Origin: Naegleria gruberi
Taxonomy: Eukaryota
DNA length: 64,000 nucleotides
Direction: 5' to 3' (one strand)
Assembly (NCBI GenBank): GCA_000004985.1
Contig: GG738858.1
Shown: piece after piece, positions 24,101-61,875 of the stretch
Layout: every line of letters begins with the position of its first letter
How positions within the stretch are numbered: position 1 is the first letter of the stretch
Position numbers and translations under genes: made by a program
The notes under the pieces: model-generated
The model's input: the letters and a program-made list of their open reading frames with translations, nothing else
What the model was told of the DNA's origin: nothing
Database searches by the model: none

Positions 24101-27100
24101 CTTCCAGTTGGAGGTGTATTTCTAATGACTACAGACATGGTAGCATAAGTTGCAACTTGAGCACCATCATAACAACTAAACTTAATGGAGTCTGTAACAT
24201 ATCGTGTTCCATTAGAAAGAGTGGTTGTGTAAGAAATTGAGGAGCTTGGTGTGTAAACAAGAGATCCAGTAGTGTAATCCGAAACAGTTGTTGTACCATA
24301 TGAACCTTGACCAACTCCAAACAAAGACAATGAATCGCTATCAGCATCATAACAGTATTGAGAAACAACATTTGTCAAAGACAAAGTGTTCTTCCAACCA
24401 ATAGTTTTAGAGAATGAAGTAGCTTGAGGAGCAGTATTGGTAAAAACAAGGTTAACAGTGGCAATATTAGAGGTGGCAATTTGATCAGTAATGGTGTATT
24501 GGAATGAATCAGTACCTGGACCATTAATGAAGGTATTCATATAGAAAACAGTTACCAAATCACTTTGTAAAACAAGGGCGGTATTACCTGTTGGCAATTG
24601 AGCACTACCAAAGTTAACATTATTCAAATTCAAAGAATTAGAACCCAAACTCATGATAACACCATACATGTTAACAACATTGAAGTTAAGTTGACCATAG
24701 GTAAGGACATGTCCATAGAATGTACCTTGAATACCTGCAGCGCCAACAATCCAGAAAACGTTCAAGTAACTAGCACCATTCTTGAAACTCCAACTAAAGT
24801 TAGCATTCAAATTTGTGGTGGCAACAAAGATAAAAAGACCACTTCCACTCAATTCAATTTTACCATTTCCATTGAGACCTTGAGAGAAACAATATACACC
24901 TGGAGTAAATGACAAAACACCTGAAGATGGGAAGTTTTGATCAAGAGAGGCAACACAAGACTTTTGTGAAAGATATTGGTAGAGATTTGAGGCAGATGTA
25001 ACAACAGATGAGTAGGCAGCGTTGTTGACACTCAAAGTACCAGTTGGTTTAAGAGCTTGAGCAGTGAAACCAGCAGTGGCAACGCTTCCAGGAACAACCA
25101 AATTGGCAAAGTTATTACAAATGGTTGAACCCTTAGAAATAACAATGTAATCTCCGATACCATTGTATGAACTGACTAAGCTTGATGGATATAACTTGTT
25201 AATATAAATATAATCACCATCAACATCATAATCGTTCAAAACAGGTTTCAAATACAAGGTATTATTGGTCCAGTGTTGAGTGAATGTATTATCAACAGCA
25301 ACAGGAGGAGTATTAGTAATGGTAATGGTAACAGTATTGGTAACACTTGAGAAACCATCAGTTACAACATAGGTGAATGAAGTAGTGAACCCAGCAGTTA
25401 GAGGAACTGGTGTGTACTTGACAAAAGTGGAATTAACAGAAGCAACAGCACCAGTATTTGGTTGAGTGAATGAAACAATGGTCAATGAATCACCATCAGC
25501 ATCAGTAACTCCAGACATCAAATCAATACTGAGGCCACTTTGAACCTTAGCCCAGTGACGACTGAATGTTAATGGAGTTGCTGTAGGAGCGCTATTGGAA
25601 ATAGTAACAAAGATTCCCTTTGATGCAGAAACTCCCATTCCATCAGTTACAGTATAGTTGAAGAATTGTGATGCAGAGTTTCCATTAGAATTGGTGAATG
25701 TGAATGATTTCTTGTCACCACTCAAAGCAACAGTACCTGCACTTGGATTAGTGAATGATGAAATAACAAGATAGTCTCCATCCTCAGTATCAGCATCAGT
25801 TGGCTTGAGAGAATCAGCTCTACCAATAACTGGAATAGAAATTGAGGAAGTGTGACCAGATACAACAATATCTTTAGCAACTGGAAGATTGTTATAGATA
25901 ACAATGCTGAATGTTGCACTTGAAGTGGACCACCCATCAGTGAATGAAACAGTAACGGAATCAGTACCAGTGTAAGCACTATTGACCTTATAGTTAATGG
26001 TGTTTCCTGAACCAAGAGAAGCAACACCAACCAGTGTCTTTGTGACAGCAGTTAAGGTAACAGCATCACCATCAGCATCCTTAAGATAGGAAGAAAGATC
26101 AATAACAGTATTACTCAAAACAGTTCTCCAGTGATATTTGAAAGCTGCAGTAGTATTGGCTGTTGGAACACTATTCAAAATTGTAATGGAAACAGTACCA
26201 GTGACTGTATCTCTTCCATCAGTGATAATATAACTGATTGGGTTGATACTACCAACAAAACCACTGGAAGGAGTGAATTTTACATTTCCAGAGCAAGTGA
26301 CACTACCTTGAGCTGCAGTAACAGATGAAGAGCATGATTGTAATGATAATGAATCTCCATTAGCATCTGAAGAAGCAGAAACAACTTCAAATGTTAAACC
26401 ATTCTTAGCTGAAGACCAAGAACCGACAAATGATTGTGAATTTGTTGTTGGAGCAGTATTGGTAACAGTAACAGTAACAGTTGATGTTGAAGTGGCAATC
26501 TCATCAGTGATTGTATAGTATACAGTATCTGTAGATGGAGCAGTTCTTGGATAGTAAGTAATGTTGGTTGAGGTAAATGTTGGTGACAAAGGAGCTAATG
26601 AACCATAAACATTAGTAACTCTCAATGGATCAGACTCAGCATCAGTATCGTTAGCAACAACATTCAAAGTGTAAGAAGCAACGTTCCAGTGAGTAGTGAG
26701 CTTATCTGGAACAGCTACTGGGGCAGTATTGTAAACAATCAAGTTGACAGTTGTGGTAACTTGACCGTTTGAAGCACCATCAGTAACAATGTACTTGAAT
26801 GAAAGTGAACCCACAAAGTTTCCAGAACCAAGGATTTTGACAGACTTGCTATCCAAAACAGTTACGGAACCAACACTTGGTTGAGAAGCAATTGAAACCA
26901 AACTCAATGAGTCGCCATCAGTATCATAATCAGCTGGAGCATAATTTAAGATATCAATTTCAATACCTGCCTTGAAAGTTCTCCATGGAACTGAAATAGT
27001 CTTGGTTTGAGAAGTTGGAGCGTTGTTTACAACAGTTACAGAGATTGAACTAGTTGAGCTCTTCATAGAGTCAGAAACTCTGTAGTTAGCAGTGTAAACA

Positions 27101-30100
27101 CCAACAGTGTTGGATGCAGTGAATGTGGCAATATTTGAAGAAACAGACAATGATCCCTTACTTGGTTGAGTATCTGCTGAGAAGGACAAGTTATTGACAT
27201 CCAATGGATCAGCATCAGAAGTGTAACTAGTCAAGTTGAAAGCAACACTTTGTCCGAAATGGACTGTACCTGTAATTGCTTGAGCTGTTGGGGCAGTATC
27301 ATAAACAGTCATGGTGAAGACAATGTAACTATTACCACTGCTTGTGTAATATTTCAATGTAAATTGTTCATTACCCAAATAGGATCCAGAAGGTTTATAG
27401 GTAACAGTCTTCAAATCAGAAGAAACACTTACTATACCCCCGTGGTTTGGATCAGATAATGGTGTTTGATCGAGAGTTGTACCAGTCTCTGAAAGCTTAT
27501 CGAGAGGTAAGAATACATATCCAACACTTGAGTATCTGAAATGAACATTGTAGTATTGTTCAGTACTGGATGGAGAAGTTGATGTAATGTTAATCTTCAA
27601 GTAACCAATTGATGTAGTCAATCCATCACTAATGGTATATGGAACAGTGTCAACACCCAATGACTTGACTAAGCTTGGGTCAGGGAAATAGACAATTTTA
27701 CCGTCAGATGGTTGGGCAGCACCACTGCCAAACATGCTTGAAGAACCTACATTCTCAATCTTCAAATATGGAACATCTTGAATGTCAGAATCAGTTGCTA
27801 AAGAAATAACGTCAATAGTGATACCATATTGAATGTTACCACCAGAGTAGGTCAAGGTAAGATTGGCAGCAACTGGAGCATTATTGTAAGAGTTTGTGGT
27901 CAATGTGGCAGAAGATGACTCAAAACCATCTGAGAGAATAACCTTACAAGCATCACTTGATGCAAATGCACTTCTCAAATATTTAACACCCTTGATTCCA
28001 TTTCCTAAATCAACAAGGGAGCAATAAGAGCTGGAACCAGTGTTGAATGAGAGTGAATAATAATCACCATCAGCATCTGTGAGAGTATTGTAAACAGTGT
28101 AAGAAACTCCATTTGTTTGAACAGTTCTCCAATGAGCAGATGTAGATTGATCACTGATAGATGGCTTATTAGTATTGACAATGTTGACTGTAACAGTGGA
28201 AGCTGAGGAGTAGAGAGCTCCATCATATGCCTTGTAAGTGAATGTCTTGGCTCCAAGGGTTGGTGGATTCTTCAATGTATATCTGAGTAAATTATTTACA
28301 ATGCTTAATGATCCTTCACTAACAGATGATGGGTTAGTAACAGTGAGGGCATCATTATCAGCATCAATATCATTAGACAAGACATTAATATCAACGAATG
28401 AAGTATTCCATTGGACAGTAACAGTATCACTATTTGCAACTGGTGCGTTATCAGTACAGTTGACTGTAACAGTGTTGCTTGCGGTTTCAATACCATCAGT
28501 GATTCTGTAAGTGAAAGAGTAAACTCCAATAGAAGCACTTGATTGTTTGTAAACCAACTTGGATGAAACAACAGAGGCAGATCCTTGTGATGGAGCTGAA
28601 ACAATTGGTGTGGTATCAAATGCCAAACTGTCACCATCAGAGTCCGAACATTCACTCAAAATGTCAATGGAAATACCAGAAACACAAGTGGACCACTTGG
28701 ATACAATATTCTTTGAAACTGCTGTTGGAGCGTAATTTTGAATAGTAACAGGATAGGAGGCAGTCTTACTGATCCAACCATCTGTGTAAGAAATGGTCAA
28801 TTGAGAAGCTCCTAACTTGACAGTTTTTGGAAGATTCCAAACAATAACCTTATCAGAATTAATAGTTGGAGTACCATAAGAGCTGTCATATGCAGAAATT
28901 GAGAAAGATACAGAATCACCATCACTATCGGAAATACTTGAAGAAATATCAATAAGAGATTGATTCTTGGTCCAGTGAATACTTGTTGGGAATGGTGTGG
29001 CAATTGGAGCGGAATTTTGTACATCGATATTCCATTTGGCAACACTATTCAATAAGCCATCAGTAAAAGTAACAGTTACAACACATACACCAGTACTTCC
29101 TGCTGCACTAGTGAAAGTAACAGTGGAGGTGGTGTAGGAAACAGAACCACAACTAGAAGTTGAGGCTCCCTTAACAACAACTGTATCTTCAGAGTCAGAA
29201 TCAGTGACGTTGAACCAAGCAATAGCATTCTTAGTATATCCATTGCTTACATCAGTAAAATGTCTTGTTTCAGAGATATCATTTGAAACTGGAGCGTTAT
29301 CATAAACTATAACATTGACAGTGACAATAGAAAAGCTTGAACCATCAGTGATTTGAACCTTGAATGAATCACTTCCCAAGTATCCAGCATTTTGCTTGTA
29401 AATAACGTTTGGAATTGTAGTAGCATCACCATTTGAGATTGTAATACTACCGTGTGCTGGAGCTTGATCTGGAGTGGTAACAATTGACAATGAATCACCA
29501 TCGTTATCAACAGGTTGAGCAATACTGAAAATGTTAATTACAGAACCAGTGGATTGAGTGCTCCAGTGAACAGTCTTTGAGATGGTCTTATCTTGTGGCT
29601 TGTCATTATTTGTAACAGTAATAGAAACAGAAGCAATATTACTTGTTGAAGGACCATCAGTACAAGTGTATGTAAAGTTTTGAACTCCCAAACCAGAAGA
29701 ACTTGGAGTGAAGGAAACAAATGACTTGGATGAATCCAAAACCAAATTACCAGCAAATCCAGAAGAAGTAGTGAATGATTTGATAGCGATTGGATCAGTG
29801 TCAGCATCAACATCATTGGTAAGGAGATTTAATTGCTTGTTGGAAATTCTCCAATGCATTGTATATGAATCGTCATTGGCAACTGGTGCAGTATTAGTAA
29901 CTTCAACATTGACACTACCAACAGTTGATTTACCATAATCAGAAACAACATAAGTGAATGAATCAGTACCAACAAAGTTATTGGCCTCGATAGAAGTATA
30001 GACCAAACCATCAGTTCCATCACCAAGTGTAACACGAGAGACTGAACCCTTAGAACCTTGAGTGAATGAAGCAATATGGAGTGAATCACCATCAGCATCT

Positions 30101-32550
30101 GTACATGATGTTAATACAGGAATGTTAACAGATGATGAACGCCAATGAGTACGAGCAGTGACATCACCAGCAACTGGAGCAGTATTAGAAACAGAAACAG
30201 TTACAGTGGCAGATGAAACAGAAACATCCATACCATCTGTACAAGTGTAAGTGAAGGTATCATTACCAACGAATCCATTACTTGGAACGTAGAGAATGGA
30301 CTTTCCACCTTGATAAATTGAAACAGTAGCACCATTATTGGAAGTATAGGAAACAGAGTTAACAGTGAGAGAATCACCATTGATATCCTTGTCATTATCG
30401 AGAACATTGATAACAACACTTCTATTCCATGAAACAGTTGCTAAATCATCAACTGGAACAGGAGCATCATTGACAACATGAACAGTGACAACAGCCTTAT
30501 TGGAAACTAATTTTTCAACATCAGCAACATCAAATTCGACATAGTCAACATAAACTGAAGACAAAGCAGTATAATTAGCATAATCATTACCAGGTGTGAA
30601 ACTAATAGACAATCCATACGTGCTTTGAGAAAAACTATTATAAGTAATCTTATCACCATTTGGATCATAACTGTTCAAGATTGGATTAATAGAAGAAGTT
30701 AAACCCTTTGAAACTGTAAAGCTTGAAGCAACAGCAACAGGAGCAGTATTAACAACCTTAATAATTACATATCCAGTACGATTGAATGTGCCTTCAGTGC
30801 TTCCATCGGCATTGGTATTAATGACAATGTATGAAGCAACATCTTCACCTGTGAAATCATGAGCTGGTTCATAAAGGGTATTGTTATCGTCTAGTCTGGT
30901 AATTTTACCTCCATTCAAAGTGGTAGCAGAGACAAAATTAAGCTTCAAGACATCACCAGATTGACTGTAATCATTGCTGATAACATCGACAGTGACTTGT
31001 CCATTCTTTTGACAAGTTGCTGTATCATTGACTGGAATAGGAGGAGAAGGAACTACATTGATAGTAATAGTGGCAAGTACAGAATCAACACCATCACTAA
31101 CTTTGACTTTGAAGGATTCAGAGTAGACAACACCTTGCTCTGGAGTGTAAAGAAGAGTATAGGCATTGCTATTAACTTGATAAAAGTCACCACTTGGATA
31201 GTAAACGCTTTTAACAGAAGTAACAACAGACAAGGAGGAAGAACCACGAGTCAATTTGGTAGTTGGAGTCAACGTAACAGTATCCAAGATATCTTCATCA
31301 GAGAAAGTCAAATCAATGAGATTATTCTTTGAATTCTTTGGAACATCAATAGTCAAATCCTTTGCAGAAGGAGGCAAGTTGACTATTTTGATAAAAACAA
31401 ATGAAGAGCTTGTGAGTGCTCCATCTGTAATAGTGTATTCGAAAGCATCACTGGCAGGAGTTGAAATGAATGGCTTTGGAATATATTGCAAGAAAGCACC
31501 TTGAGCACCAACAAGAACAGTACCAGTAGAACCGAGACCAGTAGAACCTGAAACAATTGTAATATTATCACCATTGATATCATAATCGTTTGACAAGACA
31601 CTCAAAGTTGCCATGGTATTCTTATTAACAGTATAGGAATCTGGCTCAGCAGTTGGGGCATCATTTGCAACAATAATCTTGAGAGTAGCTGTTACATTGG
31701 AATAACCATCTGATACAGTATAGTTAAGCTGCTCTTCATTATTAAAGCCATAAGCAGGAGTATAATAAACAAACAATTCATCAAATGAAATGGAACTTCC
31801 CTCAGAAACAGAACCACCCAATGAAGTAATAAAAAGTGTATCTCCATCTACATCAGAAGTCATTCCTCCATTTTCAGTAACAAAGTTGAAAACATCAAAA
31901 TTATTATTCTTTGAATTCTTATTGACTGTATATTGCAAATCAACAACATCTGGAGCACGATTCAAAACTTGGACATGGATTTTTGCTGTGGCAACAGTCC
32001 ATGAATTGGTGATGGTATATTCTAATGTATCATTTCCTGCAAAACTTCCACTTGATGTGTAAACAATTGTATTCTTGGCAGATAACACAGCTTTACCATG
32101 AGCAGGTTGAGTAATATTGAGAATTGTTAAATTTGAAGATCTAGTATCATAATCATTAGAAAGTGGATAGAAATTTGAAGGCACTTTCTTATAAACTTGA
32201 TAATAATCATCCACAGCAACAGGATTGTAAACTGTTGCATTCAAAGTTACCATCAAGATGGTAGCAACAACACTGGCAACAACAAGACTTGAAATAACAG
32301 CACCTATAACAGTTTGACTAATAGTGCCTCCCTATTGAAGAAGATGAAAGGATTCACAAACATGATATTCGAAACAATGTTAAAAATTACAGAAACATGA
32401 AGAACCATCATGGAACATTATATTTCCATCAATACGCATTAGCAAAGGCTATTCGAAACTAAGTATCCTACAAACCTTCAAGAGGGAAATATTGGCTGTA
32501 AAGCCTGTACGAGACACAGTTGAAGAACCCAACACAGTACCTGCAGGCAT
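21196..32550 (-). CDS. Giant (about 3,711 aa) predicted type II membrane adhesin-like protein. It has an N-terminal cytosolic tail plus signal-anchor TM, about 25-30 tandem cadherin-like/bacterial-Ig-like repeats, an embedded DUF3494 ice-binding-like beta-helix, a VWA domain and a C-terminal C-type lectin domain. Exon 1 is 32476..32550, intron 32332..32475, exon 2 is 21196..32331.
   Basis: An uninterrupted 11 kb ORF. Exon 1 (MPAGTVLGSSTVSRTGFTANISLLK, gtttgt donor) splices to GGTISQTVIGAVISSLVVASVVATILMV (TM) in frame. The repeats follow the pattern VxNxAPVA..D..T.HW…ID(V/I)L.ND.D.DGD.L.I… and end …Y.VTDG…S…V.V.V. The DUF3494-like segment runs PGVYCF…LFIFVATTNL…NGASYLNVFWIVGAAGIQGT…GHVLTYGQL, at about 24560..25160. 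The VWA/MIDAS motif is DIIFVIDGSGSI…HITDGLSND, at about 22480..22900. The CTLD runs CYYF…WSDGS…WY…C at 21196..~21640. Confidence 0.8.
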
Positions 32551-50015: not shown

Positions 50016-51972
50016 ATGTTCAAAACATTGCAATCAGGTAAGTCTCGACTGAATTGTTTATATTGATGATGTTTTAATTATTTATCATCATCATTAGCTC
50101 CCGAATCCGAATCAGCCTCTGACTCTTTGAATGACACAGTTTCACCCTATTCTGCTCCTTCCTATAGAATTACAATAACAGGTAAATAATAGTAATATTT
50201 AAATAGTATTTACAATAAATAGTTGTGGAGGGAAAAGGATTTACTGGTGATAGAGATGGTAAGTAATAGTAATAATAATATTTTTTTTTAATAATACTAT
50301 ATTTAATACTATTTACAATAATAATATTTAATACAATTTAATGTATGCGTCGAAAATGATGAATAATATTGCCAATAACACTAATAGCATTTTGTAAATT
50401 ATGTGTAAATTCACCTAATTGTTGTATTCAAAAAACTAAAAGTAGAAAAACAGCAACACCACAATGGAATCAAGAATTTACATTTGAACCACTGTTTCGT
50501 AATTCACCAATGATTATTACATTGTGGAATAATAACTTGTTGTCAAAATCAGAATTTCTTGGATGTGTCCGATTGATTCCAATGAGAATAATTAGAGAAG
50601 ATGTTCTATTTGATGATTGGTTTGAATTGGAACCACTCAATACTCCTAGATATAGAAATACACCAATTATTAAAGGAGGAAAAATTAGATTACAAATTAA
50701 ATGGGAAAGATTGATTCAAAAAATTGAAACAGCTCACTATGGATTTGATGAACCAATTGAAAATTCACGAATTATTAGAGATACATCTGGAAAGGGTATT
50801 CATTTGCGTTTTAAAAATTTAGATACTTCAGATATTGAAAGTGCAGAAGGTGTTAATGGAAGGAGTAGATCTGCATACTTTTCTGGTTTCAATTACTTGG
50901 AAAGTAGTTATAATCCAACTAGAAATTTAACAGAATTTACAATTAGTTTTTGGTTTAAATGTCCTTCAATAGAGAAGGATTTTTCCATGTTGAGTACAAT
51001 TACAAGTAACAAGACACTCATCTTACAAGAATATAACAATAATAATATTCATCAACTTTCAACAGAATCAGCTGCATCACATTTAGAGAAATTATACACA
51101 TCCAATGAATCATCAAGTCCAGTTATTACATTATCTGCTCAACCAATCACATCAAACACTCATTATTTACCATCTCCAAGAGGAGGAAATCCAAATCCAT
51201 TTTCATTGAGTGTTGGTGGTCTGAGTGATGAGAAGAAGATTAGGAGATTGAGCTTGAATTCATTAGCTGCTTTGAATACAAGCTTCAGTTTAAAGAGAGG
51301 ATCGTAAGTATTTAAATTATAATTTCCAATAATAACAATTTCAGTAATTCTAAACAAGCTAAAAAGGATTTAACTGATGAGAGTATAATTTCAAAGAGTG
51401 GTTTCAGTTTAGGTACCAAAAAGATTGAATTTTATGATTGTAGAGGTCAATCTCTTGTTACTGAATTTAAATTGAAACAAAAGTCAACTCCAAATATGAC
51501 TCCTTCACTTGTACCAGAATTACAAACTCCTACTAACTCTACTGCAGATCCAAGAGTTGACTATGAAGCAATTTTTGCTGATATTCTTTCATTAATTAGT
51601 GATAGTGAAGAGTGTTATCTGACTTCAGATGCCAGTCGAAGCAGTTTAAGTTTGAGAATATATGATGAACCAGAGGAAACAAGTGAAAGCTTCCCTCGAG
51701 AAGAACTCTTTGACAAGGATGCTTGGAATCATGTTGCCTACGTCTACTCTGGTGATAGATTAAGAGAGTACATCAATAATATCCTTGTAGAGGATCAAAA
51801 ATGTGATTTTAGAATTCTTGGTTGTGGTTTGAATAGACTCTATGTTGGTGCTTCAAATGATGAATATTGTTTTGAAGGTTTCAAAGGTTTTCTTGATGAA
51901 ATCTCAATTCACAACTATGCAATGAATAAGAGTGAAATTTCCAAATTGTACAAATTCAAAGATATACAATAA
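50016..51972 (+). CDS. C2 domain plus concanavalin-A-like/LamG-like jelly-roll domain protein. Exons 50016..50037, 50098..50181, 50223..50258, 50388..51303, 51345..51972.
   Basis: The spliced N-terminus is MFKTLQS|APESESASDSLNDTVSPYSAPSYRITIT|VVEGKGFTGDRD|AFCKLCVNSPNCCIQKTKSRKTATPQWNQEFTFE…DDWFELE, a C2 fold. The C-terminus is AYFSGFNYLE…LTEFTISFWFK…WNHVAYVYSG…LYVGASN…GFLDEISIHNYA (LamG/pentraxin-like). The ATG at 49987 is out of frame with the exon joins, so 50016 is the start used. Confidence 0.5.
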
Positions 51973-51973
51973 A

Positions 51974-53248
51974 TCATTTGGTCCTTTTTGTAATATTTGG
52001 CAATCTTTCTAATGAATGTACTATTGGAAATGCACTGCTTGTGTTTGTGCTTTCTTTTCTCCCAGTGAGAGGATGTACATTCCTCGATCGATTAGGATTT
52101 AAAACATATTCTTTCAGATCCTTAAAATCCTTAACATCCTTCAAATCTTTAACTGCTATACTATCTTTCACTTGACTATCTTTTAATTCTTTCTGATCCT
52201 TCTTCTCCTTTAAATTATATGAATTGAATACGCTCCTTTTTCCTTGAAGAGTATCTGTGGAACTAGCCTTCTTCCTATCCTTTTTAATGGTTGATAAGGT
52301 TTCAGTAGTTTCTGGTAATTGTCTCTTCAAGTTGGATATTTCTTGTTTGATTTCTCTGAGTTCTCTCGGAGTGACAACTCTAGCTCCATTATACAAATGC
52401 AAACTCTCAATTACCTTATCCTTTTCATCACTAACCCTTGTCAAGACTTCAATAAGGGAGTCCTTTCTTTGAAGCTCTTGTTCCAGTAGGGAAAGCTTCT
52501 CCTCGTAAGTTGTTCGGAGTGAGGTTATTTCATCTTGACGAGCCTCCTCTAGTCTCTTCATATTCTTTAGAAGGTGTTCTAAATTCCTCAGATAATTATA
52601 TTTATCATTCCTTGATATGTATGTTTGATTATTATCCTGTTGAAGAAGAAATAATTGTAAATTCCTAACGACTGTTTCCGACAAGGATGTTGTTGAGAGA
52701 GTCCTCAAATCACCTTGAATAGCCTCAATTGATTTTCTAATTTGTTGCAATTCCTCACCCTCTCCTCCTCTAGCATTCGTAATACTACTATGATTTATAT
52801 TATTATTATAATTTAATAGGGCAGATGATGATGGATCATAAACATGAATTGGTGAGAGAATATTAATATTAATCGGCGTTTCTGCTCTGTCCACTTCTTC
52901 AATGCCCGTTGTTTTTGGTGAATTATTCTGACTAGCTAGTGTTGTTTCTACTATATTTCCTTCATCCTTGTTGCTTGAATGATTCTCCTCTTCTACAATT
53001 TCCGTTGAAGTCATCCTATTCGTTTTTGCTGTTGTTGTTGTTGTTAAAATATAACGCTCGCTTATTGAATAATCGCTTAAACAGTCTTTGATGGCAGTTG
53101 AAAAGGCAGTTGAGTGGTGTTGTGCTTTTAAGGAAAATTGAAAGGTTTTGTTCGTTGGGATGTTCAACAAGAATTTTTCTCTGAGCTTTTCGAAAATATC
53201 AATGGCTTGTTGTTTTGAACTGCCATAGAACAACAAAAAAAATGTCAC
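51974..53248 (-). CDS. Hypothetical coiled-coil protein (start uncertain; the ORF track begins at GTG)
   Basis: Long heptad-rich segments (…LQRKDSLIEVLTRVSDEKDKVIESL…) and VKDLKDVKDFKDLKEY repeats. No in-frame ATG near the 5' end, so an upstream exon or an internal start is possible. Confidence 0.35.
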   Translation of the reverse strand: MTFFLLFYGSSKQQAIDIFEKLREKFLLNIPTNKTFQFSLKAQHHSTAFSTAIKDCLSDYSISERYILTTTTTAKTNRMTSTEIVEEENHSSNKDEGNIVETTLASQNNSPKTTGIEEVDRAETPININILSPIHVYDPSSSALLNYNNNINHSSITNARGGEGEELQQIRKSIEAIQGDLRTLSTTSLSETVVRNLQLFLLQQDNNQTYISRNDKYNYLRNLEHLLKNMKRLEEARQDEITSLRTTYEEKLSLLEQELQRKDSLIEVLTRVSDEKDKVIESLHLYNGARVVTPRELREIKQEISNLKRQLPETTETLSTIKKDRKKASSTDTLQGKRSVFNSYNLKEKKDQKELKDSQVKDSIAVKDLKDVKDFKDLKEYVLNPNRSRNVHPLTGRKESTNTSSAFPIVHSLERLPNITKRTK

Positions 53249-54467
53249 TAATTCTTGGGTTAAATGATGACATGTACAGAGTAATATTTAGTTTTTTAGA
53301 AATTGATTTCATTCAAGAATGCATGCGTCTTGTACATACATCATTTAATATTCTCATCATTGAAGATGAAACAATACAACAACAATATTTATTGAAGAAA
53401 GTTCACAAGATGAGCCAAGATCCCGACAAGACACAATCAAATGTTCACTATAGAACTCCACTATATAATAGGTACCAGATGGAGTCCTTCTATTCTCCCT
53501 ATTTTAGAGTGGAAAAAGATTATCACCAAGCATTTCAAAGATTAAAGAGAGAATTTCATAGGAAAATGGAGGAAACTGAGGAGCAGAGAAGAAGTTTGGC
53601 ATCAAATCGTTATTTAACAAAGAAGGATATTTATCATCACTATGAGGAGATTAAATCAACTGTTAATGAAACTCACTTTGAACTATTGAGGGAAAATATT
53701 AGCAAAGAGGATAATGATGGAAAGCCAGTTCTAAAGTTGGTATGTTTGAATATTCTAATTTGAAAGAGTTTTATAATTTCAAAAAGATAATTAATGGAGA
53801 TGGAGGAGCAGGGAAAACATCTCTGCTTCAATATTTGGGATATGGACAAATGTTTGAATATTTCACTGCCCTTGACGCTTGCATTTCTTACTCTATTAAA
53901 TCGAATAACTCTGAAAAACAAGAGGTTATTAGTAAGTTTGAAATAATTGACACTGCAGGTAAGTAGAGTGTAGGTAAACTCTAAAATTAAACAAAAATAG
54001 GGCAGGAAGAGTAAGTACTCTAATTATTGAGCTCTTGAGTTCGTTTTTCAACAAACAGCTATGACAGAGTGAGACCACTAATTTACCCCGATACTCATAT
54101 ATTTTGTCTTTGTTTTAGTATTGTAATGCTTAGTAGTTTTGAAAATATTCAGTATAAATGGATTCCAGAAATTAAGCATCACATGCCAGACACTCCAATA
54201 ATGTTAATGGGTTGTAAAATTGATTTAAGGAAAAATCCTCTATCCTTAAAACAAATGAAATTCAGAAATTTCTCCAAACCTATCAGTTTTGAAGAAGGAG
54301 AATTAATGGCTCGTTCTTCTGGATGCTGTACCTATGTTGAATCCTCTGCACTCACTGGAGAAGGAAACATGACTGACTTTGCAGAAATTGCTTTCAAAAC
54401 TCTGATTTATTATAGAAATAAATCATTGTTATTTCCTGGAAGAGAGAAGAAATGCGAATTGATGTAA
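53242..54467 (+). CDS. F-box-like domain fused to a Rho/Rac-family GTPase with a C-terminal CaaX box. Exons 53242..53739, 53787..53958, a 10-nt micro-exon 54001..54010, and 54059..54467.
   Basis: The F-box-like motif is LNDDMYRVIFSFLEIDFIQECMRLV. The GTPase reads KL|IINGDGGAGKTSLL (G1)…EIIDTAG|GQE|DYDRVRPLIYPDTHIFCLCFSIV. That is an exact Rac switch II, DTAGQEDYDRLRPLSYP, restored only when the micro-exon GGCAGGAAGA is included. LMGCKIDL (G4) and SSALT (G5). C-terminal CELM (CaaX, farnesyl-type). All donors are gtaagt/gtatgt and acceptors ag. Confidence 0.6.
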
Positions 54468-54949
54468 AGATCATTGACACCTTCTTTGTAAATTTTGTTT
54501 GTTTTTGTGTAACTTGTTAAATAAAACCTAATTATTTATTGGAAGCCTAATTAAACTTATGATAAAGCTGCAAACATTTTACCAAATGATACTCTTCACC
54601 CTAATTAAGCAATCCAATTCAAATGATTGAATATCTCTGCAACATTGCATAGAGAAATTATATTAGAATCAGTTAAAAAGCATGGATTTGCACTCCAATA
54701 TGTCTCTAGAATATTATAGAGAAATTGTGCTGGAAGCAGTTTCCGGAATTCATTTGCAATTATATTAGCCTCTGACGAATTACAAGTTGATCAAATGAAA
54801 TCAACATCACTTCCACTCGGACGAATCACACGTTTTCCCATAAGTACTGCTTTCAATGGATACTCATTCCTATGTGCTAGGTGAATTGAAACATTCCTCC
54901 ACAACCATGTGAATACTAAGGACATACCATTTACTCACTGATGGATAAC

Positions 54950-56536
54950 CTAGTTGTCAGAGTTATGTGCAACTTTTTTGAGATATTTCTCTAGTCGTTT
55001 GGTTTTCTTTTCAGTCATATTGTTCCCAAACAATGATAAATATTCCAGTTTTTTCATTCCTAACAAGTGTTGAATACAATCATCAGTCAGATCATTAGAT
55101 TGTAAGTCTAGATACTTCAAATTTGGCAACCCACTAATCCATTTGATTGCGTTATCGTCTAGACCACAGAAATTCATTTCTAGATAGGTCAAATTGATCA
55201 AATTCTTGTGCCAATATTTAAAACCTTCAACACTTTCAACTAGGTCAGTAAGTGACAAATGAAGACTGGTTAGTTGTTTCATTAAGCCAAGTTGTTTTAG
55301 CACTTCACTACAACAACCAACACATTCTGAAATATCCAATATAGTTAACCTTGGTAATTTTGAAATTGATTTTACCCCTTTAACAGATATTTGTCCACCA
55401 CTAATATTTAGATATGTCAACTCCTTTAAAGAGCTTATTGAGTCTAAAAAATCATCACAAATTTCATTTCCATCAATAAAAAGAGTTGTCAGTTTTGTAA
55501 GAGATGTCAAATATTTTGCTCCACTACTGGTGATTTCATGTTGAGAAATATTTAAATATGTAAGTTGTGTAAGGGAGGCAACTAGTTTAGCTGCCTCATC
55601 ACCAAGTGCATCAATAATTGAATGGTTGCCAATATCAAGTACTCTCAAATTCTTCATAGAGCTAATCCACTTAAGTCCTTCATTTCCAAAATCATTCTTT
55701 GATATATAAAGTTCTGTCAGGTTTATCATTTTAGTAAGGCTTTCGCAGGATTCACTTTCAATCCAAATTCTGTTAATATGGAGGGTTTGCAATGATTCCA
55801 TAGAAGAAATAGGCAGCAAACCTAATGGTCCTAAATCATTATTTCCAATATCTAAAAATGTTAATGATTTTAATCTACTAATAATGTCAGCATCTTCAAA
55901 AGTCAAATTACAGTTATTCACATCCAAACTTGTCAACTTTTTCAAAGAACTTAAATGTTCTACATCTTGGTTCTCCAAATGCACTGATGAAATATTTAAA
56001 CTTGTTAAATTTTCAATCATTCCAATATATTTCACACCATTAGCGCATTTAGTCTTACTAACATTCAATACAGTCAAATGTTTCAAAGATTTCAAACACT
56101 TGACACCTTCCCTGTAACAATTTTGTCCACTCAAATCTAATTCTCGTAAATTATAAAATCGTTTCTGAATAATTGTAAAAATCAAAAGATTATATTTTAA
56201 GTGCAAACATTCTACCCGATCAATATATTTCTGATGACTTTGAGAGAGTTTCTTCCATTCTCTCCTTTCACTAATCCGAAAATTAAATTTAATTCTCGTC
56301 ATAATAATGTCAAACCACTGTCGGCAAACTAGTATACAATTTGTTAGTACTTGAACTGAATCTAAATATGTGATCACCTCAAAAGTCATATCACTGGAGA
56401 GAAAATCAATATTATATTCTAGTTCTTCTTTTGAATCTGAAATGTATTGTTGATCAAGGAGCAATTTTAGATGGTTTTGGTTTTTGATTTTCTTAAGCTT
56501 GGAAATGATGGAATCAAAGGTGCGTTTTCGTTTCAT
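54950..56536 (-). CDS. F-box / ribonuclease-inhibitor-type LRR protein (ATG at 56536; the ORF track starts at an upstream TTG)
   Basis: The F-box-like motif is DMTFEVITYLDSVQVLTNCILVCRQWFDII. It is followed by more than 12 RI-like LRRs (LTSLDVNNCNLTFEDADIISRLKSLTFLDIGNNDLG…). Confidence 0.6.
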   Translation of the reverse strand: MKRKRTFDSIISKLKKIKNQNHLKLLLDQQYISDSKEELEYNIDFLSSDMTFEVITYLDSVQVLTNCILVCRQWFDIIMTRIKFNFRISERREWKKLSQSHQKYIDRVECLHLKYNLLIFTIIQKRFYNLRELDLSGQNCYREGVKCLKSLKHLTVLNVSKTKCANGVKYIGMIENLTSLNISSVHLENQDVEHLSSLKKLTSLDVNNCNLTFEDADIISRLKSLTFLDIGNNDLGPLGLLPISSMESLQTLHINRIWIESESCESLTKMINLTELYISKNDFGNEGLKWISSMKNLRVLDIGNHSIIDALGDEAAKLVASLTQLTYLNISQHEITSSGAKYLTSLTKLTTLFIDGNEICDDFLDSISSLKELTYLNISGGQISVKGVKSISKLPRLTILDISECVGCCSEVLKQLGLMKQLTSLHLSLTDLVESVEGFKYWHKNLINLTYLEMNFCGLDDNAIKWISGLPNLKYLDLQSNDLTDDCIQHLLGMKKLEYLSLFGNNMTEKKTKRLEKYLKKVAHNSDN

Positions 56537-56934
56537 TTTTTTTATTAAGATCAAAAAGATTAAGATGATCTTGAAATTTTTTGAGTAACTTTCTATTGAA
56601 TTGAGGATGCTATTCAAACTAATGACCAATCTCTTAAGTATTGAATTGATCTTGTCAGCTGTGGAAATTTTCTTGAAAATTCATCAAGTTTACAAAAGCT
56701 GTTAATACAATTTCTCTGTCGTTTCTCAATTCTTCATTAAATTCAAGTGCTAAAAATCCATCCCTTTCTGCAATTAGTTTTACAATTATTTTCACTTTCC
56801 AAAAATTCAACGGTATGTCATCTAAATCCTCATCTGAACAGAAAAGTGTTTAATTAAATAGGTATATATAAGCATCTTCTTTACAATTATTCGAATCAAA
56901 ACCCTGGACTCTATCTTCAAACATCAATATAAGA

Positions 56935-57181: not shown

Positions 57182-59678
57182 ATGCAAGTTCAACCTGTAC
57201 CAGAAGAATCCGTTAGTTTATTAGAAAGCACACCAAAAAGAAGGAAAGGAGGTTGCATACCTCTACATGCATTTGTCATGATAACAATTTCTGTTTTGAT
57301 TTTGAGTGGTTGTCTTTTAGTTTGGCTTTCGTCTTTCATTGTTTCATCCTATTCGATTCAGAATTTGAATACGAATTTGATAGACGAATCTGCACAAAAG
57401 ATTAGTAGAACACTTGAAGGTTTTTTGAGTCCAGTTGGAAAGGTAATGTTGATGATTCGACTAGTTTATCTTAGTTTCTAACTGTTTATTCGAACAATTA
57501 GATAACGAGAATGATGGCTCGTGACTGGAATAAGGGAGTCGTCACAGTTTCGAATATGAGAGACTATTTACATCCAATCATTGTAGAGTTTGGCTTCACC
57601 TCAGCTGGTTTCTTTTTCAACGATACCTATTCGTATAGATATGCTTTTTCTGTTCAGGGAACTGTTAGTTCATTATTTTGGGGTAAGTTTAACTTTCGTA
57701 CGATTTATTAATGACCTTTCGAATAGTTTATGTAAGACAAGATTATGGTCAAGTAATTTCTTACAGAGATAAAGTCAATATCACCACAGGAGACGTAATC
57801 GTTCCAAACTTTATCAAAGTTGTTCCTCAAGTAGTTAACACTTTCGACTATTGGCTATTTATGGTAAACTATACCAGAGACACTGGAAGCGAAGGCGCAT
57901 TTGGCGATCCTTCTTTTGCAGCTGGTTCTGGATTTGCTCTGACCTACACTCAATGGGTCTATGATCAATTTCTCTGGAAAAACCAAACGAAAAAGAGATT
58001 TATTGGTCTAGCCAAAATCAACCTGTCACTTGACTATATAGTTCAGTATCTTTCGAGTAATATTGATTTGATTGGTGATGGTTATGTGGTTGTTACATTG
58101 AATAGTGGAATTGTAATTGGTGGTTCAATTAATACAACTGTGAATGATGGAACGACAGTTGCGAATATTTTTGACATTGAGACAAGAAAAGCGGGAAAAA
58201 CAATTAAGAAATTTTACGAAATGAATGGAAATACCTTTAAAAACTTTTCGTCGAAAAGTTTGACAGTAGAAAGTGAAGGAGTGAAATATATTGTTTCACC
58301 ATTCAAGTTTAGGTATGAAAATTTGGAGTGGAACATTTTCTTTGTTTTATACGAATCTGATGTCAATGCCCCAATGGTAATGAGTTCTTCCATAAGTGTT
58401 GGAATGACAGTTCTAATTATCATTGTCGGTTTAGTGGCAAGTTTATTGACTGGTTGGTTAGTGGCAAGTCCAATGAGATTCTTAGAGAAACAATTCGAAT
58501 TCATACGAGTCATGAAATTAGAAAATGTCAACATGACAAAATCATCCCCATTCAGAGAATTTCATTCCATTTACGGTAATTTAAATGATACAGTCATGTG
58601 GCTTAATGAAATTAAGGCTTTCATTCCAGAACATGTCTTTGCTCAGCTTAATCAAAGTGAGGAAATTTCACTTCCACCTCCAAAAGAAACCAAAAAGCAT
58701 GCAAAGAAAGAAACCGAATTTGAAGATATGAATGCAAGACAGTCACGTTCAAATTTGGGTTCAAGTCAAGTTTTAAGTTCAGGAAGTGCCGTTAGCCACT
58801 TAGCAAGAAATTCATCATTCAAATCTCCTTCCATTTTCAAGACTGGTTACTTAAAGAAGGGATGTGCCTTTGTACATGTCAAGTTGGAAGGTCTTTCCAA
58901 TAAGGATACTAATTTCATTTCTTCCTTTTTTGAGAAATTCATGTCCTCAGTGGGTCCAATTATTAAGGTACAGCAGGCAAATATTCAGTTTATTACATGT
59001 GATGAATTTGAATTCTCCATTACATCAAAGTATGTGGAGGGCAAACTACTGGAGAAGACAATCGAATGTTGTAATAAGATTGTAAAGACCATTGATCCAA
59101 ATGATAGAATTCAGGCAAGAATTGGAATTTGCTGTGGAATGGCTGAAGTTGGTAATATAGGGACCAAAACAGCAAGATTCTACTCTGTCCATGGTGATGT
59201 TCCAAATTGTGCCCGTTACTATTCTGATCTTGCATGTCAATACAATGTCAATATGATAACAGATGACAAGAATTTACCATTGGACAACTTTATCACAAGA
59301 CCACTTGATAGAATTCAAATTCCTTCAAATGTAGTATTAACTATTTATCAAATAATTGCTAAGAAAAATCAGGAAAATGACGAGTGGCTTTATGAATTGG
59401 AAAATAATAAGCTCAATGACAAGTACAATGAATATTCCAACATATTCAAATTATTCAGTATCAGTGATGATAATTATGATGTAGCTCCTCTCATTAATAG
59501 TGCGAAGGAAATACTGGATCAATACAAACTCAAAGGTTTGGACGAAAGTGATCTTTCCTTTTCCAATTTGAGAAACTTGTTGCATGTATTGAGCCAATCA
59601 CCAAAGCAGGAAGCTCTTTCAATACTACAATCTTATTCGAACACACTTGTGAAGGAAATGAAATCAAATAAATTATAA
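57182..59678 (+). CDS. Receptor-type class III nucleotidyl (adenylyl/guanylyl) cyclase-like membrane protein. Exons 57182..57442, 57502..57682, 57727..59678.
   Basis: An N-terminal TM (FVMITISVLILSGCLLVWLSSFIV), a roughly 300-aa extracellular sensor-like region, and a second TM (VGMTVLIIIVGLVASLLTGWLV). The C-terminal catalytic-domain motifs are CAFVHVKLEGLS… and RIGICCGMAEVGNIGTKTARFYSVHGDVPNCARYYSDLA, against the consensus [RK]IGIHTG.V.AGVVG…Y…GD.VN.ASR.ES. The frame is kept across the gtaatg and gtaagt introns. Confidence 0.5.
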
Positions 59679-61654: not shown

Positions 61655-61875
61655 GCAAGGAAAGAAATAACTAATAAGGAAAATATTAAGAGTAAATTGG
61701 AAAGAGGAATCAATGAAGGAGAGTTGATACAGCAAATTGGATTTAGTGAATTCTACTGAACATAATTAGTGGACACCATCCCATCTCAATTAAATGTTCA
61801 ATGCTGTTGAATCAAAAAAACGAAAATATTTTAACGATTTAATTTTAGAATTTACAAAATCAAATTTAAAAAAAA

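What the first reader, a model, noticed from the sequence alone, without database searches (positions are those of the whole stretch)
54001..54010. 10-nt micro-exon encoding the catalytic switch II 'GQE' of the Rho GTPase
Only by including GGCAGGAAGA does DTAG|GQE|DYDRVRPL reproduce the universally conserved Rac switch II with the catalytic Gln. The segment is flanked by an AG acceptor at 53999..54000 and a gtaagt donor at 54011..54016. A direct 53958→54059 splice breaks the frame. Micro-exons this small are rare and easily missed by gene predictors.
Basis: inference. Interest (0 to 1): 0.5.

Follow-up and report, generated by a model that had tools for sequence, protein, structure and literature searches.

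The report
Ten-base micro-exon in Naegleria GTPase gene
A ten-base exon carrying the catalytic glutamine of a Rho-type GTPase is present in this Naegleria gruberi gene; an extra 42-base intron, found in no relative, lies just upstream of an older intron, and the gene has no protein model in the collection searched.

Summary
GGCAGGAAGA (54001-54010) follows an AG and precedes a GTAAGT donor. Including it gives DTAGQEDYDRVRPL; skipping it shifts the frame into a stop.

The window is Naegleria gruberi NEG-M. The gene (53242-54467, + strand, 4 exons, 362 aa) encodes a divergent Rho-family GTPase with a long N-terminal extension and a CAAX end. No protein model for it exists in the collection searched.

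The strongest evidence is comparative. Three paralogs from an environmental N. gruberi relative, and an N. lovaniensis homolog, all read as one uninterrupted exon, ...GCAGGTCAGGAAGA|GTAAGTAC. So the ten bases are homologous to the end of a normal exon. The downstream intron (phase 2, in the Asp codon) is old. The upstream 42-nt intron (53959-54000) is unique to this gene, and a single gain is the most parsimonious account.

The same structure is base-for-base identical in an independent metagenome contig that is 98.5% identical overall.

Splicing itself is inferred. No transcript data could be reached, and dN/dS between the two strains (0.59) does not differ from neutrality.

Likely mechanism: recognition by intron definition, with the two very short introns removed one after the other.

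This is a new example of a known kind of feature and is moderately interesting.

The parts
53242..53739 (+). Exon 1. ATG at 53242; encodes the 166-aa N-terminal extension (MSLILGLNDDMYRVIFSFL...KPVLKL), which begins with an F-box-like motif.
   Evidence: ORF listing and translation. An independent ORF call on the environmental contig starts at the same Met (P0122). Aligns with the N-termini of P0001 and P0012. Pfam F-box hits are sub-threshold only.
53740..53786 (+). Intron 1, 47 nt, phase 0, GTATGT...AAAAAG. Its position is conserved in the N. gruberi-group paralogs.
   Evidence: Paralog introns at the same codon boundary before I-x-N/T-G-D-G are 36-47 nt long.
53787..53958 (+). Exon 2, 172 nt. 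Encodes the P-loop GDGGAGKT, a degenerate switch I, and DTA plus the first base of Gly.
   Evidence: The Pfam Ras match starts here.
53959..54000 (+). Intron 2, 42 nt, phase 1, CAG|GTAAGT...AAATAG|G. It contains an in-frame TAG. It is present only in this gene and its 98.5%-identical environmental counterpart, and is probably a lineage-specific gain.
   Evidence: Absent from L001, L003, L004 and L005. Tree. No other copy in the window.
54001..54010 (+). Micro-exon GGCAGGAAGA: bases 2-3 of Gly, then Gln (the catalytic residue, Gln61 equivalent) and Glu, then bases 1-2 of Asp, within switch II DTAGQED.
   Evidence: Matches the exon end GTCAGGAAGA of paralogs L003 and L005 at 9 of 10 bases (8 of 10 in L004). 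Identical in L002.
54011..54058 (+). Intron 3, 48 nt, phase 2 in the Asp codon, AGA|GTAAGTAC...AAACAG|C. This is the old intron of the family.
   Evidence: Same position and phase in L003 (46 nt), L004 (46 nt), L005 (47 nt) and N. lovaniensis L001 (49 nt).
54059..54467 (+). Exon 4. Encodes YDRVRPL..., CKID (G4), the Rho insert, SALTGEG (G5) and the CAAX box CELM, ending in TAA. An alternative in-frame AG lies at 54066-54067, 9 nt downstream of the main acceptor.

Best explanation
The window carries a four-exon gene of Naegleria gruberi NEG-M (53242-54467, + strand) that has no protein model in the collection searched. It encodes a divergent Rho-family GTPase. Its third exon is a real 10-nt micro-exon encoding (G)QE(D) of switch II, including the catalytic glutamine. 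The micro-exon exists because a 42-nt intron sits at a CAG|G site only 10 nt upstream of an older phase-2 intron shared by the whole family. That 42-nt intron is absent from every other family member examined and was most parsimoniously gained on this gene's branch. Inferred mechanism: all three introns are very short (47, 42 and 48 nt) and carry GTAAGT or GTATGT donors. Each is therefore probably recognised across the intron (intron definition). The 3' splice site of intron 2 and the 5' splice site of intron 3 are only 10 nt apart. The two flanking introns are therefore probably removed one after the other, with the downstream one probably first as reported for plant micro-exons. Failure to remove intron 2 gives an in-frame TAG. 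Skipping the micro-exon gives a frameshift. Only the doubly spliced mRNA encodes a complete G domain. Shown here: the sequence, the frame logic, homology of the 10 nt to the exon end in paralogs, conservation of intron 3, and uniqueness of intron 2. Inferred: actual splicing, the order of removal, and gain rather than loss.
For: The neighbouring ORF is an exact match to N. gruberi NEG-M XP_002679350.1. The spliced product is open for 362 codons and matches Pfam Ras at 4e-31. It matches TC10, Cdc42 and Rac1 structures at about 1e-38, with a stretch of Rho-insert length (one 1-residue gap against TC10) and a CAAX end. The flanked 14-nt pattern occurs once in 64 kb, with 0.00 expected. Of 16 one-intron and 283 two-intron in-frame solutions, the micro-exon model alone restores DTAGQEDYDR among all those printed; the two-intron list was cut in the middle. 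The three paralogs read GCAGGTCAGGAAGA|GTAAGTAC without interruption. They and N. lovaniensis all have an intron at exactly the intron-3 position and phase. Intron 2, the micro-exon and intron 3 are identical in an independent Illumina metagenome contig that is 98.5% identical overall, so this is not an assembly artefact. The spliced ORF is intact in that strain too. Protein identity between the two strains is 97.2%. Its annotated paralogs show 97.6% and 95.4%. Other probable introns in the window (41-156 nt, GTAAGT donors) and the family introns (36-49 nt) show that 42-48 nt is a normal intron size here. Literature: micro-exons flanked by very short introns are included by intron definition (PMC8378409). 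Micro-exons of 15 nt or less are commonly missed in annotation and their flanking introns are removed consecutively, usually the downstream one first (PMC8831610).
Against: There is no transcript evidence. No transcript-derived or annotated protein from this locus was in the collection. Between NEG-M and the environmental strain there are 4 synonymous and 10 non-synonymous differences (dN/dS about 0.59). That cannot be told apart from neutrality (binomial p = 0.27). Recent loss of function is therefore not excluded. Zero differences in the 100 nt spanning the two introns and the micro-exon is uninformative at 1.5% divergence. Switch I is degenerate, the canonical Thr is not at its usual position, and a nearby Thr is Asn in the other strain. 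Gain versus loss of intron 2 differs by only one event on the tree.
Confidence: 0.82

Rival explanations
1. The locus is a recently inactivated pseudogene. The 42-nt segment is a disruptive insertion carrying an in-frame TAG that is not spliced out, or is spliced inefficiently. The apparent micro-exon is then only the stranded end of the former exon 2.
For: No gene model or protein for this locus is in the collection. dN/dS of 0.59 between strains is not significantly below 1. The non-synonymous changes include positions next to G-motifs: T193N, and SALTGEG to SAFSGEG. Only this family member has the insertion.
Against: The segment starts with a perfect CAG|GTAAGT donor and ends in AG exactly where removal restores G|GG-CAG-GAA. 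That is very improbable for a random insertion. All 362 codons are open in two strains. The changed positions are ones that also vary among the annotated paralogs (L/I/M/V in SAxTGEG; switch I differs in every paralog). The gene's protein divergence between strains equals that of its annotated paralogs. The absence of a model is expected for a 10-nt exon (PMC8831610).
Confidence: 0.1
2. The micro-exon is a regulated, alternative exon. Besides the full mRNA, the gene produces in-frame isoforms. These use 53958^54070 (DTAVRPL, no Gln, no DYDR), 53958^54040, or the acceptor 9 nt downstream after the micro-exon (DTAGQEEVRPL). Alternatively it produces a frameshifted skipped form, so that splicing switches GTPase competence on or off.
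For: These in-frame combinations use the strong GTAAGT donors and real AG dinucleotides. The reference model of paralog P0001 corresponds to the 9-nt-downstream acceptor. Plant micro-exons show elevated retention of flanking introns.
Against: The alternative acceptors CTTGAG and ACAGAG lie inside intron or exon sequence with no comparative support. The P0001 model is more simply a prediction error, since DYDR is encoded intact in its environmental ortholog. There are no transcript data of any kind.
Confidence: 0.06
3. Intron 2 is ancestral to the N. gruberi paralog group and was lost once in the common ancestor of the other three paralogs. The micro-exon would then be old rather than newly created.
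For: The tree (W,(L005,(L003,L004))) allows a single loss on the branch leading to the three paralogs. Intron loss by recombination with cDNA is common (established knowledge).
Against: The N. lovaniensis homolog used as outgroup also lacks it while keeping intron 3. This scenario therefore needs a gain plus a loss, or two losses, against one gain. Loss mediated by cDNA would tend to remove the adjacent intron 3 as well, yet intron 3 is retained in all members.
Confidence: 0.15

Closest known systems
Small coding micro-exons (15 nt or less) of plants, e.g. the 9-nt exon of potato invertase and the conserved micro-exon clusters described in PMC8831610
   Same: An internal coding exon far below the size that can be recognised by exon definition. 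It is flanked by canonical splice sites, lies inside a conserved protein domain, and is essential for the reading frame. It is missed or mis-modelled by genome annotation. The flanking introns are expected to be removed consecutively.
   Different: The organism is a heterolobosean amoeba with few introns (1.7 exons per gene, PMC8296547). Both flanking introns are extremely short (42 and 48 nt). The micro-exon is not anciently conserved: it is specific to one paralog and apparently arose by a recent intron gain. No transcript confirmation exists here.
C. elegans micro-exons flanked by unusually short introns, which are PRP-40-independent (tcer-1, introns 49-58 nt; PMC8378409)
   Same: A micro-exon with very short introns of about 50 nt on both sides. 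Inclusion is explained by intron definition without special regulators.
   Different: Those are mostly alternative, neuron-regulated exons of 27 nt or less in an animal. Here the exon is 10 nt, is not a multiple of three, and is presumably constitutive.
Rho-family small GTPases (Rac, Cdc42, TC10) and the annotated N. gruberi paralog P0001 (annotated 'rho family GTPase', N. gruberi)
   Same: The G domain carries G1 GDGGAGKT, G3 DTAGQE, a stretch of Rho-insert length and a CAAX box. It is 48% identical to P0001 over 99% of its length and shares the same N-terminal extension.
   Different: Switch I is degenerate and lacks the canonical YIPTVFDNY. G4 reads CKID instead of N/TKxD. There is a 166-aa N-terminal extension with an F-box-like start. 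An extra intron splits the switch II codons.
Lineage-specific intron gains at proto-splice sites (MAG|R), as reviewed in PMC3488318 and exemplified in Drosophila in PMC2891723 (titles and abstracts seen; the papers were not read)
   Same: A novel intron position that is absent from paralogs and from the outgroup. It is inserted at CAG|G and has the normal intron size for the genome.
   Different: No donor sequence, tandem duplication or transposon-like source could be identified. The gain lies only 10 nt from an existing intron.

Membership tests
Spliceosomal coding micro-exon (15 nt or less) | Internal segment bounded by an AG acceptor and a GT donor | tested here: met
   AG at 53999-54000 and GTAAGT at 54011-54016.
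Spliceosomal coding micro-exon (15 nt or less) | Inclusion is required for the reading frame and restores the conserved peptide | tested here: met
   Inclusion gives DTAGQEDYDRVRPL and an open 362-aa frame; skipping gives a frameshift and stop. It is the only solution restoring the motif among the 299 in-frame combinations counted, as far as one search printed them (its two-intron list was cut in the middle).
Spliceosomal coding micro-exon (15 nt or less) | The segment is homologous to exonic sequence in relatives | tested here: met
   9 of 10 bases match the exon end in paralogs L003 and L005 (8 of 10 in L004), and all three share the donor GTAAGTAC. The downstream intron is at the same position and phase in N. 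lovaniensis.
Spliceosomal coding micro-exon (15 nt or less) | Junction-spanning transcripts (exon2-ME and ME-exon4) | not testable with these tools
   No RNA-seq or EST resource could be reached. No transcript-derived protein for this locus is in the collection.
Rho family of small GTPases | Ras-superfamily G domain | tested here: met
   Pfam PF00071 at E = 4e-31, 108 bits against a cut-off of 21.6.
Rho family of small GTPases | Rho insert between G4 and G5 | tested here: met
   DLRKNPLSLKQMKFRNFSKPI aligns with the TC10 insert DLRDDPKTLARLNDMK-EKPI with a single one-residue gap. The best structure matches are TC10, Cdc42 and Rac1 at about 1e-38.
Rho family of small GTPases | G3/switch II DxxGQE with the catalytic Gln | tested here: met
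   DTAGQE is obtained, but only with the micro-exon included.
Rho family of small GTPases | Canonical switch I with the Mg-binding Thr (YIPTVFDNY) | tested here: inconclusive
   The sequence is EYFTALDAC. The Thr is offset by one position relative to RAC1 and is Asn in the environmental strain. Switch I differs in every paralog.
Rho family of small GTPases | C-terminal CAAX prenylation box | tested here: met
   CELM followed by stop. The paralogs end in CQLM.
F-box proteins (the N-terminal extension) | Pfam F-box domain above the gathering threshold | tested here: not met
   There is no hit for the window protein. Sub-threshold hits occur in 2 of 4 relatives (E 0.018 and 0.057; 13.8-15.4 bits against a cut-off of 20.5).
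Recently gained spliceosomal intron | Absent at the homologous site in all paralogs and in the outgroup | tested here: met
   Absent in L003, L004, L005 and N. lovaniensis L001. Present in the window and in L002 only.
Recently gained spliceosomal intron | An identifiable source (tandem duplication, introner or transposon copy, or transposed intron) | tested here: not met
   Similarity of intron 2 to micro-exon plus intron 3 is marginal (p about 0.04, the same as intron 1 versus intron 3). There is no second copy in the window or the loci. The 3' end of intron 2 is not homologous to the end of exon 2.

The most novel reading that the evidence does not exclude
A recent intron gain at a CAG|G site, 10 nt upstream of an existing intron, split the switch II codons of one Naegleria Rho paralog. 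This created a micro-exon whose inclusion is used as a splicing switch. Full inclusion yields a GTPase with the catalytic Gln. Alternative in-frame junctions (53958^54070, or 54010^54068) yield Gln-less or DYDR-less variants. Skipping yields a truncated product. It would be a case of a newly gained intron being co-opted for regulation in an intron-poor protist.
Probability: 0.06. Interest if true: 0.7.

Novelty: new member of a known kind. Interest (0 to 1): 0.38.

Why it matters
First, it indicates a complete Rho-family gene that is missing from the N. gruberi protein set as held in the collection searched. It also points to probable splice errors at or near the same site in the models of two paralogs. 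GTPase inventories for Naegleria may therefore be slightly wrong, and gene finders for this genome need to allow very small exons. Second, it is a clean, datable case of a lineage-specific intron lying 10 nt from an old intron in an intron-poor excavate. Such cases are useful for studying how introns are gained and how a spliceosome working by intron definition handles two splice sites 10 nt apart. Neither point changes current understanding; micro-exons, and their misannotation, are well documented elsewhere.

Tried and rejected
(1) Retrieving the NEG-M genomic DNA of paralogs P0001 and P0003 failed: no record was found. Near-identical environmental orthologs, found through a profile of the N-terminal extension, were used instead.

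(2) Two scans of JGI metagenome contigs gave no family members, only generic small GTPases at 27-50% identity. This was a dead end.

(3) Origin of intron 2 by tandem duplication of the micro-exon plus the 5' part of intron 3. The best local alignment is AGTGTAGGTAAACTCTAAAATTA against AGAGTAAGT-ACTCT-AATTA, with a shuffle p of about 0.04. That is no better than intron 1 versus intron 3, so it probably reflects shared intron motifs. Rejected as unsupported. The 3' end of intron 2 does not resemble the end of exon 2.

(4) Intron 2 as a repeated, introner-like element. There is no second copy within 3 mismatches in the window. Short-word BLAST found only an AT-rich 18-mer at 61838-61855 on the minus strand, probably by chance.

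(5) A special pre-mRNA structure around the micro-exon. The minimum free energy is -21.8 kcal/mol with z = 0.35, so there is none.

(6) Purifying selection measured between the two strains. There are too few differences (14) to be decisive.

(7) F-box identity of the N-terminus: sub-threshold only.

(8) Assembly artefact: rejected, because the structure is identical in an independent assembly.

Full report
**Observation.** The bases are as described. 53999-54000 is AG, 54001-54010 is GGCAGGAAGA, and 54011-54016 is GTAAGT. The upstream exon ends GCAG|GTAAGT at 53958/53959, and the downstream exon starts after AACAAACAG| at 54059. I joined 53242-53739, 53787-53958, 54001-54010 and 54059-54467. 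The result is an uninterrupted 362-codon frame that reads ...KFEIIDTAGQEDYDRVRPLIYPDTH... and ends CELM-TAA. Leaving out the ten bases gives DTAAMTE-stop.

The micro-exon contributes bases 2-3 of the Gly codon, the Gln and Glu codons, and bases 1-2 of the Asp codon.

The degenerate pattern needed for this (AG, GN, CAR, GAR, GA, GT) occurs once in the 64-kb window on both strands. Shuffles give 0.00 expected.

I also enumerated every GT...AG combination between 53901 and 54140 that keeps the frame open to 54467. There are 16 one-intron and 283 two-intron solutions. In the output as printed (the two-intron list was cut in the middle), only 53959-54000 plus 54011-54058 yields DTAGQEDYDR. The alternatives that use the strong donor at 53959 (acceptors at 54039 or 54069) give DTAVRFSTNSYDR... 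or DTAVRPL... and lose the catalytic Gln.

**What the locus is.**
- The ORF on the minus strand immediately downstream (54950-56629, from its first Met) is an exact match to XP_002679350.1, a leucine-rich-repeat protein of Naegleria gruberi NEG-M, on a 782-kb scaffold. The window is therefore N. gruberi, consistent with about 33% GC.
- The spliced product matches Pfam Ras (4e-31). It matches solved TC10, Cdc42 and Rac1 structures about equally, at roughly 1e-38. A stretch the length of the Rho insert aligns with a single one-residue gap.
- It has G1 GDGGAGKT, G3 DTAGQE, G4 CKID, G5 SALTGEG and a CAAX box. Switch I is degenerate.
- A 166-residue N-terminal extension begins with an F-box-like motif. 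That motif reaches only sub-threshold Pfam scores, and only in two relatives.
- The best database relative is an N. gruberi paralog, P0001 ('rho family GTPase', 48% identity over 99% of the query). Next come P0003 (N. gruberi) and P0012 (N. lovaniensis, 32%).
- No protein derived from this locus itself is in the collection, either by exact look-up of several candidate products or by homology search. The neighbouring gene's NCBI protein is present. I conclude that the gene has no protein model in that collection.

**Comparative test.**
A search with the N-terminal part found a 98%-identical ORF on a metagenome contig (L002, ENA ERZ929261). L002 is 98.5% identical to window 53215-54512. Intron 2, the micro-exon and intron 3 are identical base for base. 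The same splice model gives an intact 362-aa product in L002. Two independent assemblies therefore carry the structure, which excludes an assembly artefact.

A profile of the N-terminal extensions then recovered three more contigs from the same sample. L003 is the ortholog of P0001, L004 is the ortholog of P0003, and L005 is a third paralog.

In all three the exon runs uninterrupted...GAT ACN GCA/GAA GGT CAR GAA GA|GTAAGTAC.... A 46-47-nt intron follows, and the next exon starts T TAT GA.... The N. lovaniensis gene (L001) has its single 49-nt intron at exactly this place and phase: GGA CAA CCT GA|gtaagt...ttag|T TAT GAC.

Three conclusions follow:
- The window's GGCAGGAAGA matches the paralogs' exon end at 9 of 10 bases in L003 and L005 and 8 of 10 in L004, and all three paralogs share the downstream donor GTAAGTAC.
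- Intron 3 is an old intron of the family.
- Intron 2 (42 nt, at CAG|G) is present only in this gene.

A neighbour-joining tree of the G domains gives (window gene,(L005,(L003,L004))), with N. lovaniensis and human RAC1 outside. One gain on the window gene's branch is therefore the most parsimonious history. A gain followed by one loss cannot be excluded.

**Are the introns plausible for this genome?** The family introns are 36-49 nt long, and all but the window's intron 1 (GTATGT) start with GTAAGT. Other probable introns in the window that interrupt long ORFs have GTAAGT donors. They include lengths of 41, 44 and 66 nt (51304-51344, 57683-57726, 2629-2694). Introns of 42 and 48 nt with GTAAGT donors are therefore ordinary here.

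**Mechanism (inferred).**
- With such short introns the splice sites are expected to be paired across each intron.
- The acceptor of intron 2 and the donor of intron 3 are 10 nt apart. That is too close for two spliceosomes to assemble at once, so consecutive removal is expected.
- Work in plants shows exactly this for exons of 15 nt or less, with the downstream intron usually removed first and the upstream one often detained (PMC8831610).
- Work in C. elegans shows that micro-exons flanked by introns of about 50 nt are included without special factors, through intron definition (PMC8378409).
- No unusual RNA structure is predicted around the site (z = 0.35).
- An in-frame alternative acceptor lies 9 nt downstream (54066-54067). 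It would give DTAGQEEVRPL.

**Is the gene functional?**
- In favour: 362 open codons in two strains; retention of every residue that is invariant across the family alignment; perfect splice signals; and protein divergence between the strains (97.2% identity) equal to that of the annotated paralogs (97.6% and 95.4%).
- Not decisive: there are only 14 coding differences, 4 synonymous and 10 non-synonymous. dN/dS is about 0.59, and the binomial p against neutrality is 0.27.
- A recently dead gene cannot be formally excluded without transcripts. I give that reading about 10%.

**Origin of intron 2.**
- I tested a tandem-duplication origin. Its similarity to the micro-exon plus the start of intron 3 is marginal (p about 0.04). 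That is no better than intron 1 versus intron 3, so it probably reflects shared intron motifs such as ACTCTAA.
- The 3' end of intron 2 does not resemble the end of exon 2.
- There is no second copy in the window or in the related loci. An 18-nt AT-rich match at 61838-61855 looks like chance.
- The source is unknown.

**Comparison with what is known, and novelty.** This is a coding micro-exon of the well-described kind: a very small exon inside a conserved domain that is missed by annotation. Three things are particular here. The organism is an intron-poor heterolobosean. Both flanking introns are extremely short. The evidence indicates that the micro-exon arose recently, by addition of an intron next to an old one, in a single paralog. 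I rate it a new member of a known kind, of moderate interest. The decisive missing evidence is junction-spanning RNA.

Noticed in passing
L003 850-944 (environmental ortholog of N. gruberi P0001): The reference model P0001 reads DTAGQEE---LRPL. The orthologous DNA encodes DTAGQED|YDRLRPL with a 46-nt intron. The model seems to use an AG 9 nt downstream (ttatgacag|a), which looks like a misannotation of switch II in a second paralog.
   Followed up: partly
L004 420-1592 (environmental ortholog of N. gruberi P0003): The reference model P0003 (239 aa) lacks the first 78 residues and the whole P-loop and switch I part of exon 2. The orthologous contig encodes an intact 360-aa protein with TGDGSIGKT, so the reference model is probably mis-spliced.
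   Followed up: partly
L002 1783-2783 versus window 55647-56600: The environmental contig is colinear with window 52813-54512. It then continues directly with the leucine-rich-repeat gene in the opposite orientation (94% identity). This is either an inversion or rearrangement relative to NEG-M, or a chimeric metagenome contig.
   Followed up: no
window 53242-53739 and N-termini of P0001, P0012, L004, L005: A Naegleria-specific group of Rho-type GTPases carries an N-terminal extension of about 165 aa that starts with an F-box-like LNxDxxxxIFSFL motif. Pfam F-box reaches only E = 0.018-0.057 in two of four members. Switch I is degenerate and differs in every N. gruberi paralog.
   Followed up: partly
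window 54059-54068: An in-frame alternative acceptor lies 9 nt downstream of the main one (CTATGACAG|A), inherent to the Tyr-Asp-Arg codons. Its use would give DTAGQEEVRPL. The same configuration exists in the P0001 ortholog L003 (ttatgacag|a).
   Followed up: partly
window 61838-61855 (- strand): An 18-nt stretch (GTAAATTCTAAAATTAAA) matches positions 16-33 of the 42-nt intron at 17 of 18 bases. It is AT-rich, not in an obvious intron, and probably a chance match.
   Followed up: partly
window about 21400-32000 (- strand): There are very long open reading frames on the minus strand (runs of more than 3000 codons), suggesting a giant gene with few or no introns. It was not examined.
   Followed up: no
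window 51304-51344 and 57683-57726 (+ strand): Two further probable very short introns (41 and 44 nt, GTAAGT donors) join long ORFs. They show that 40-50-nt introns are common in this region. The gene models were not checked against annotation.
   Followed up: no
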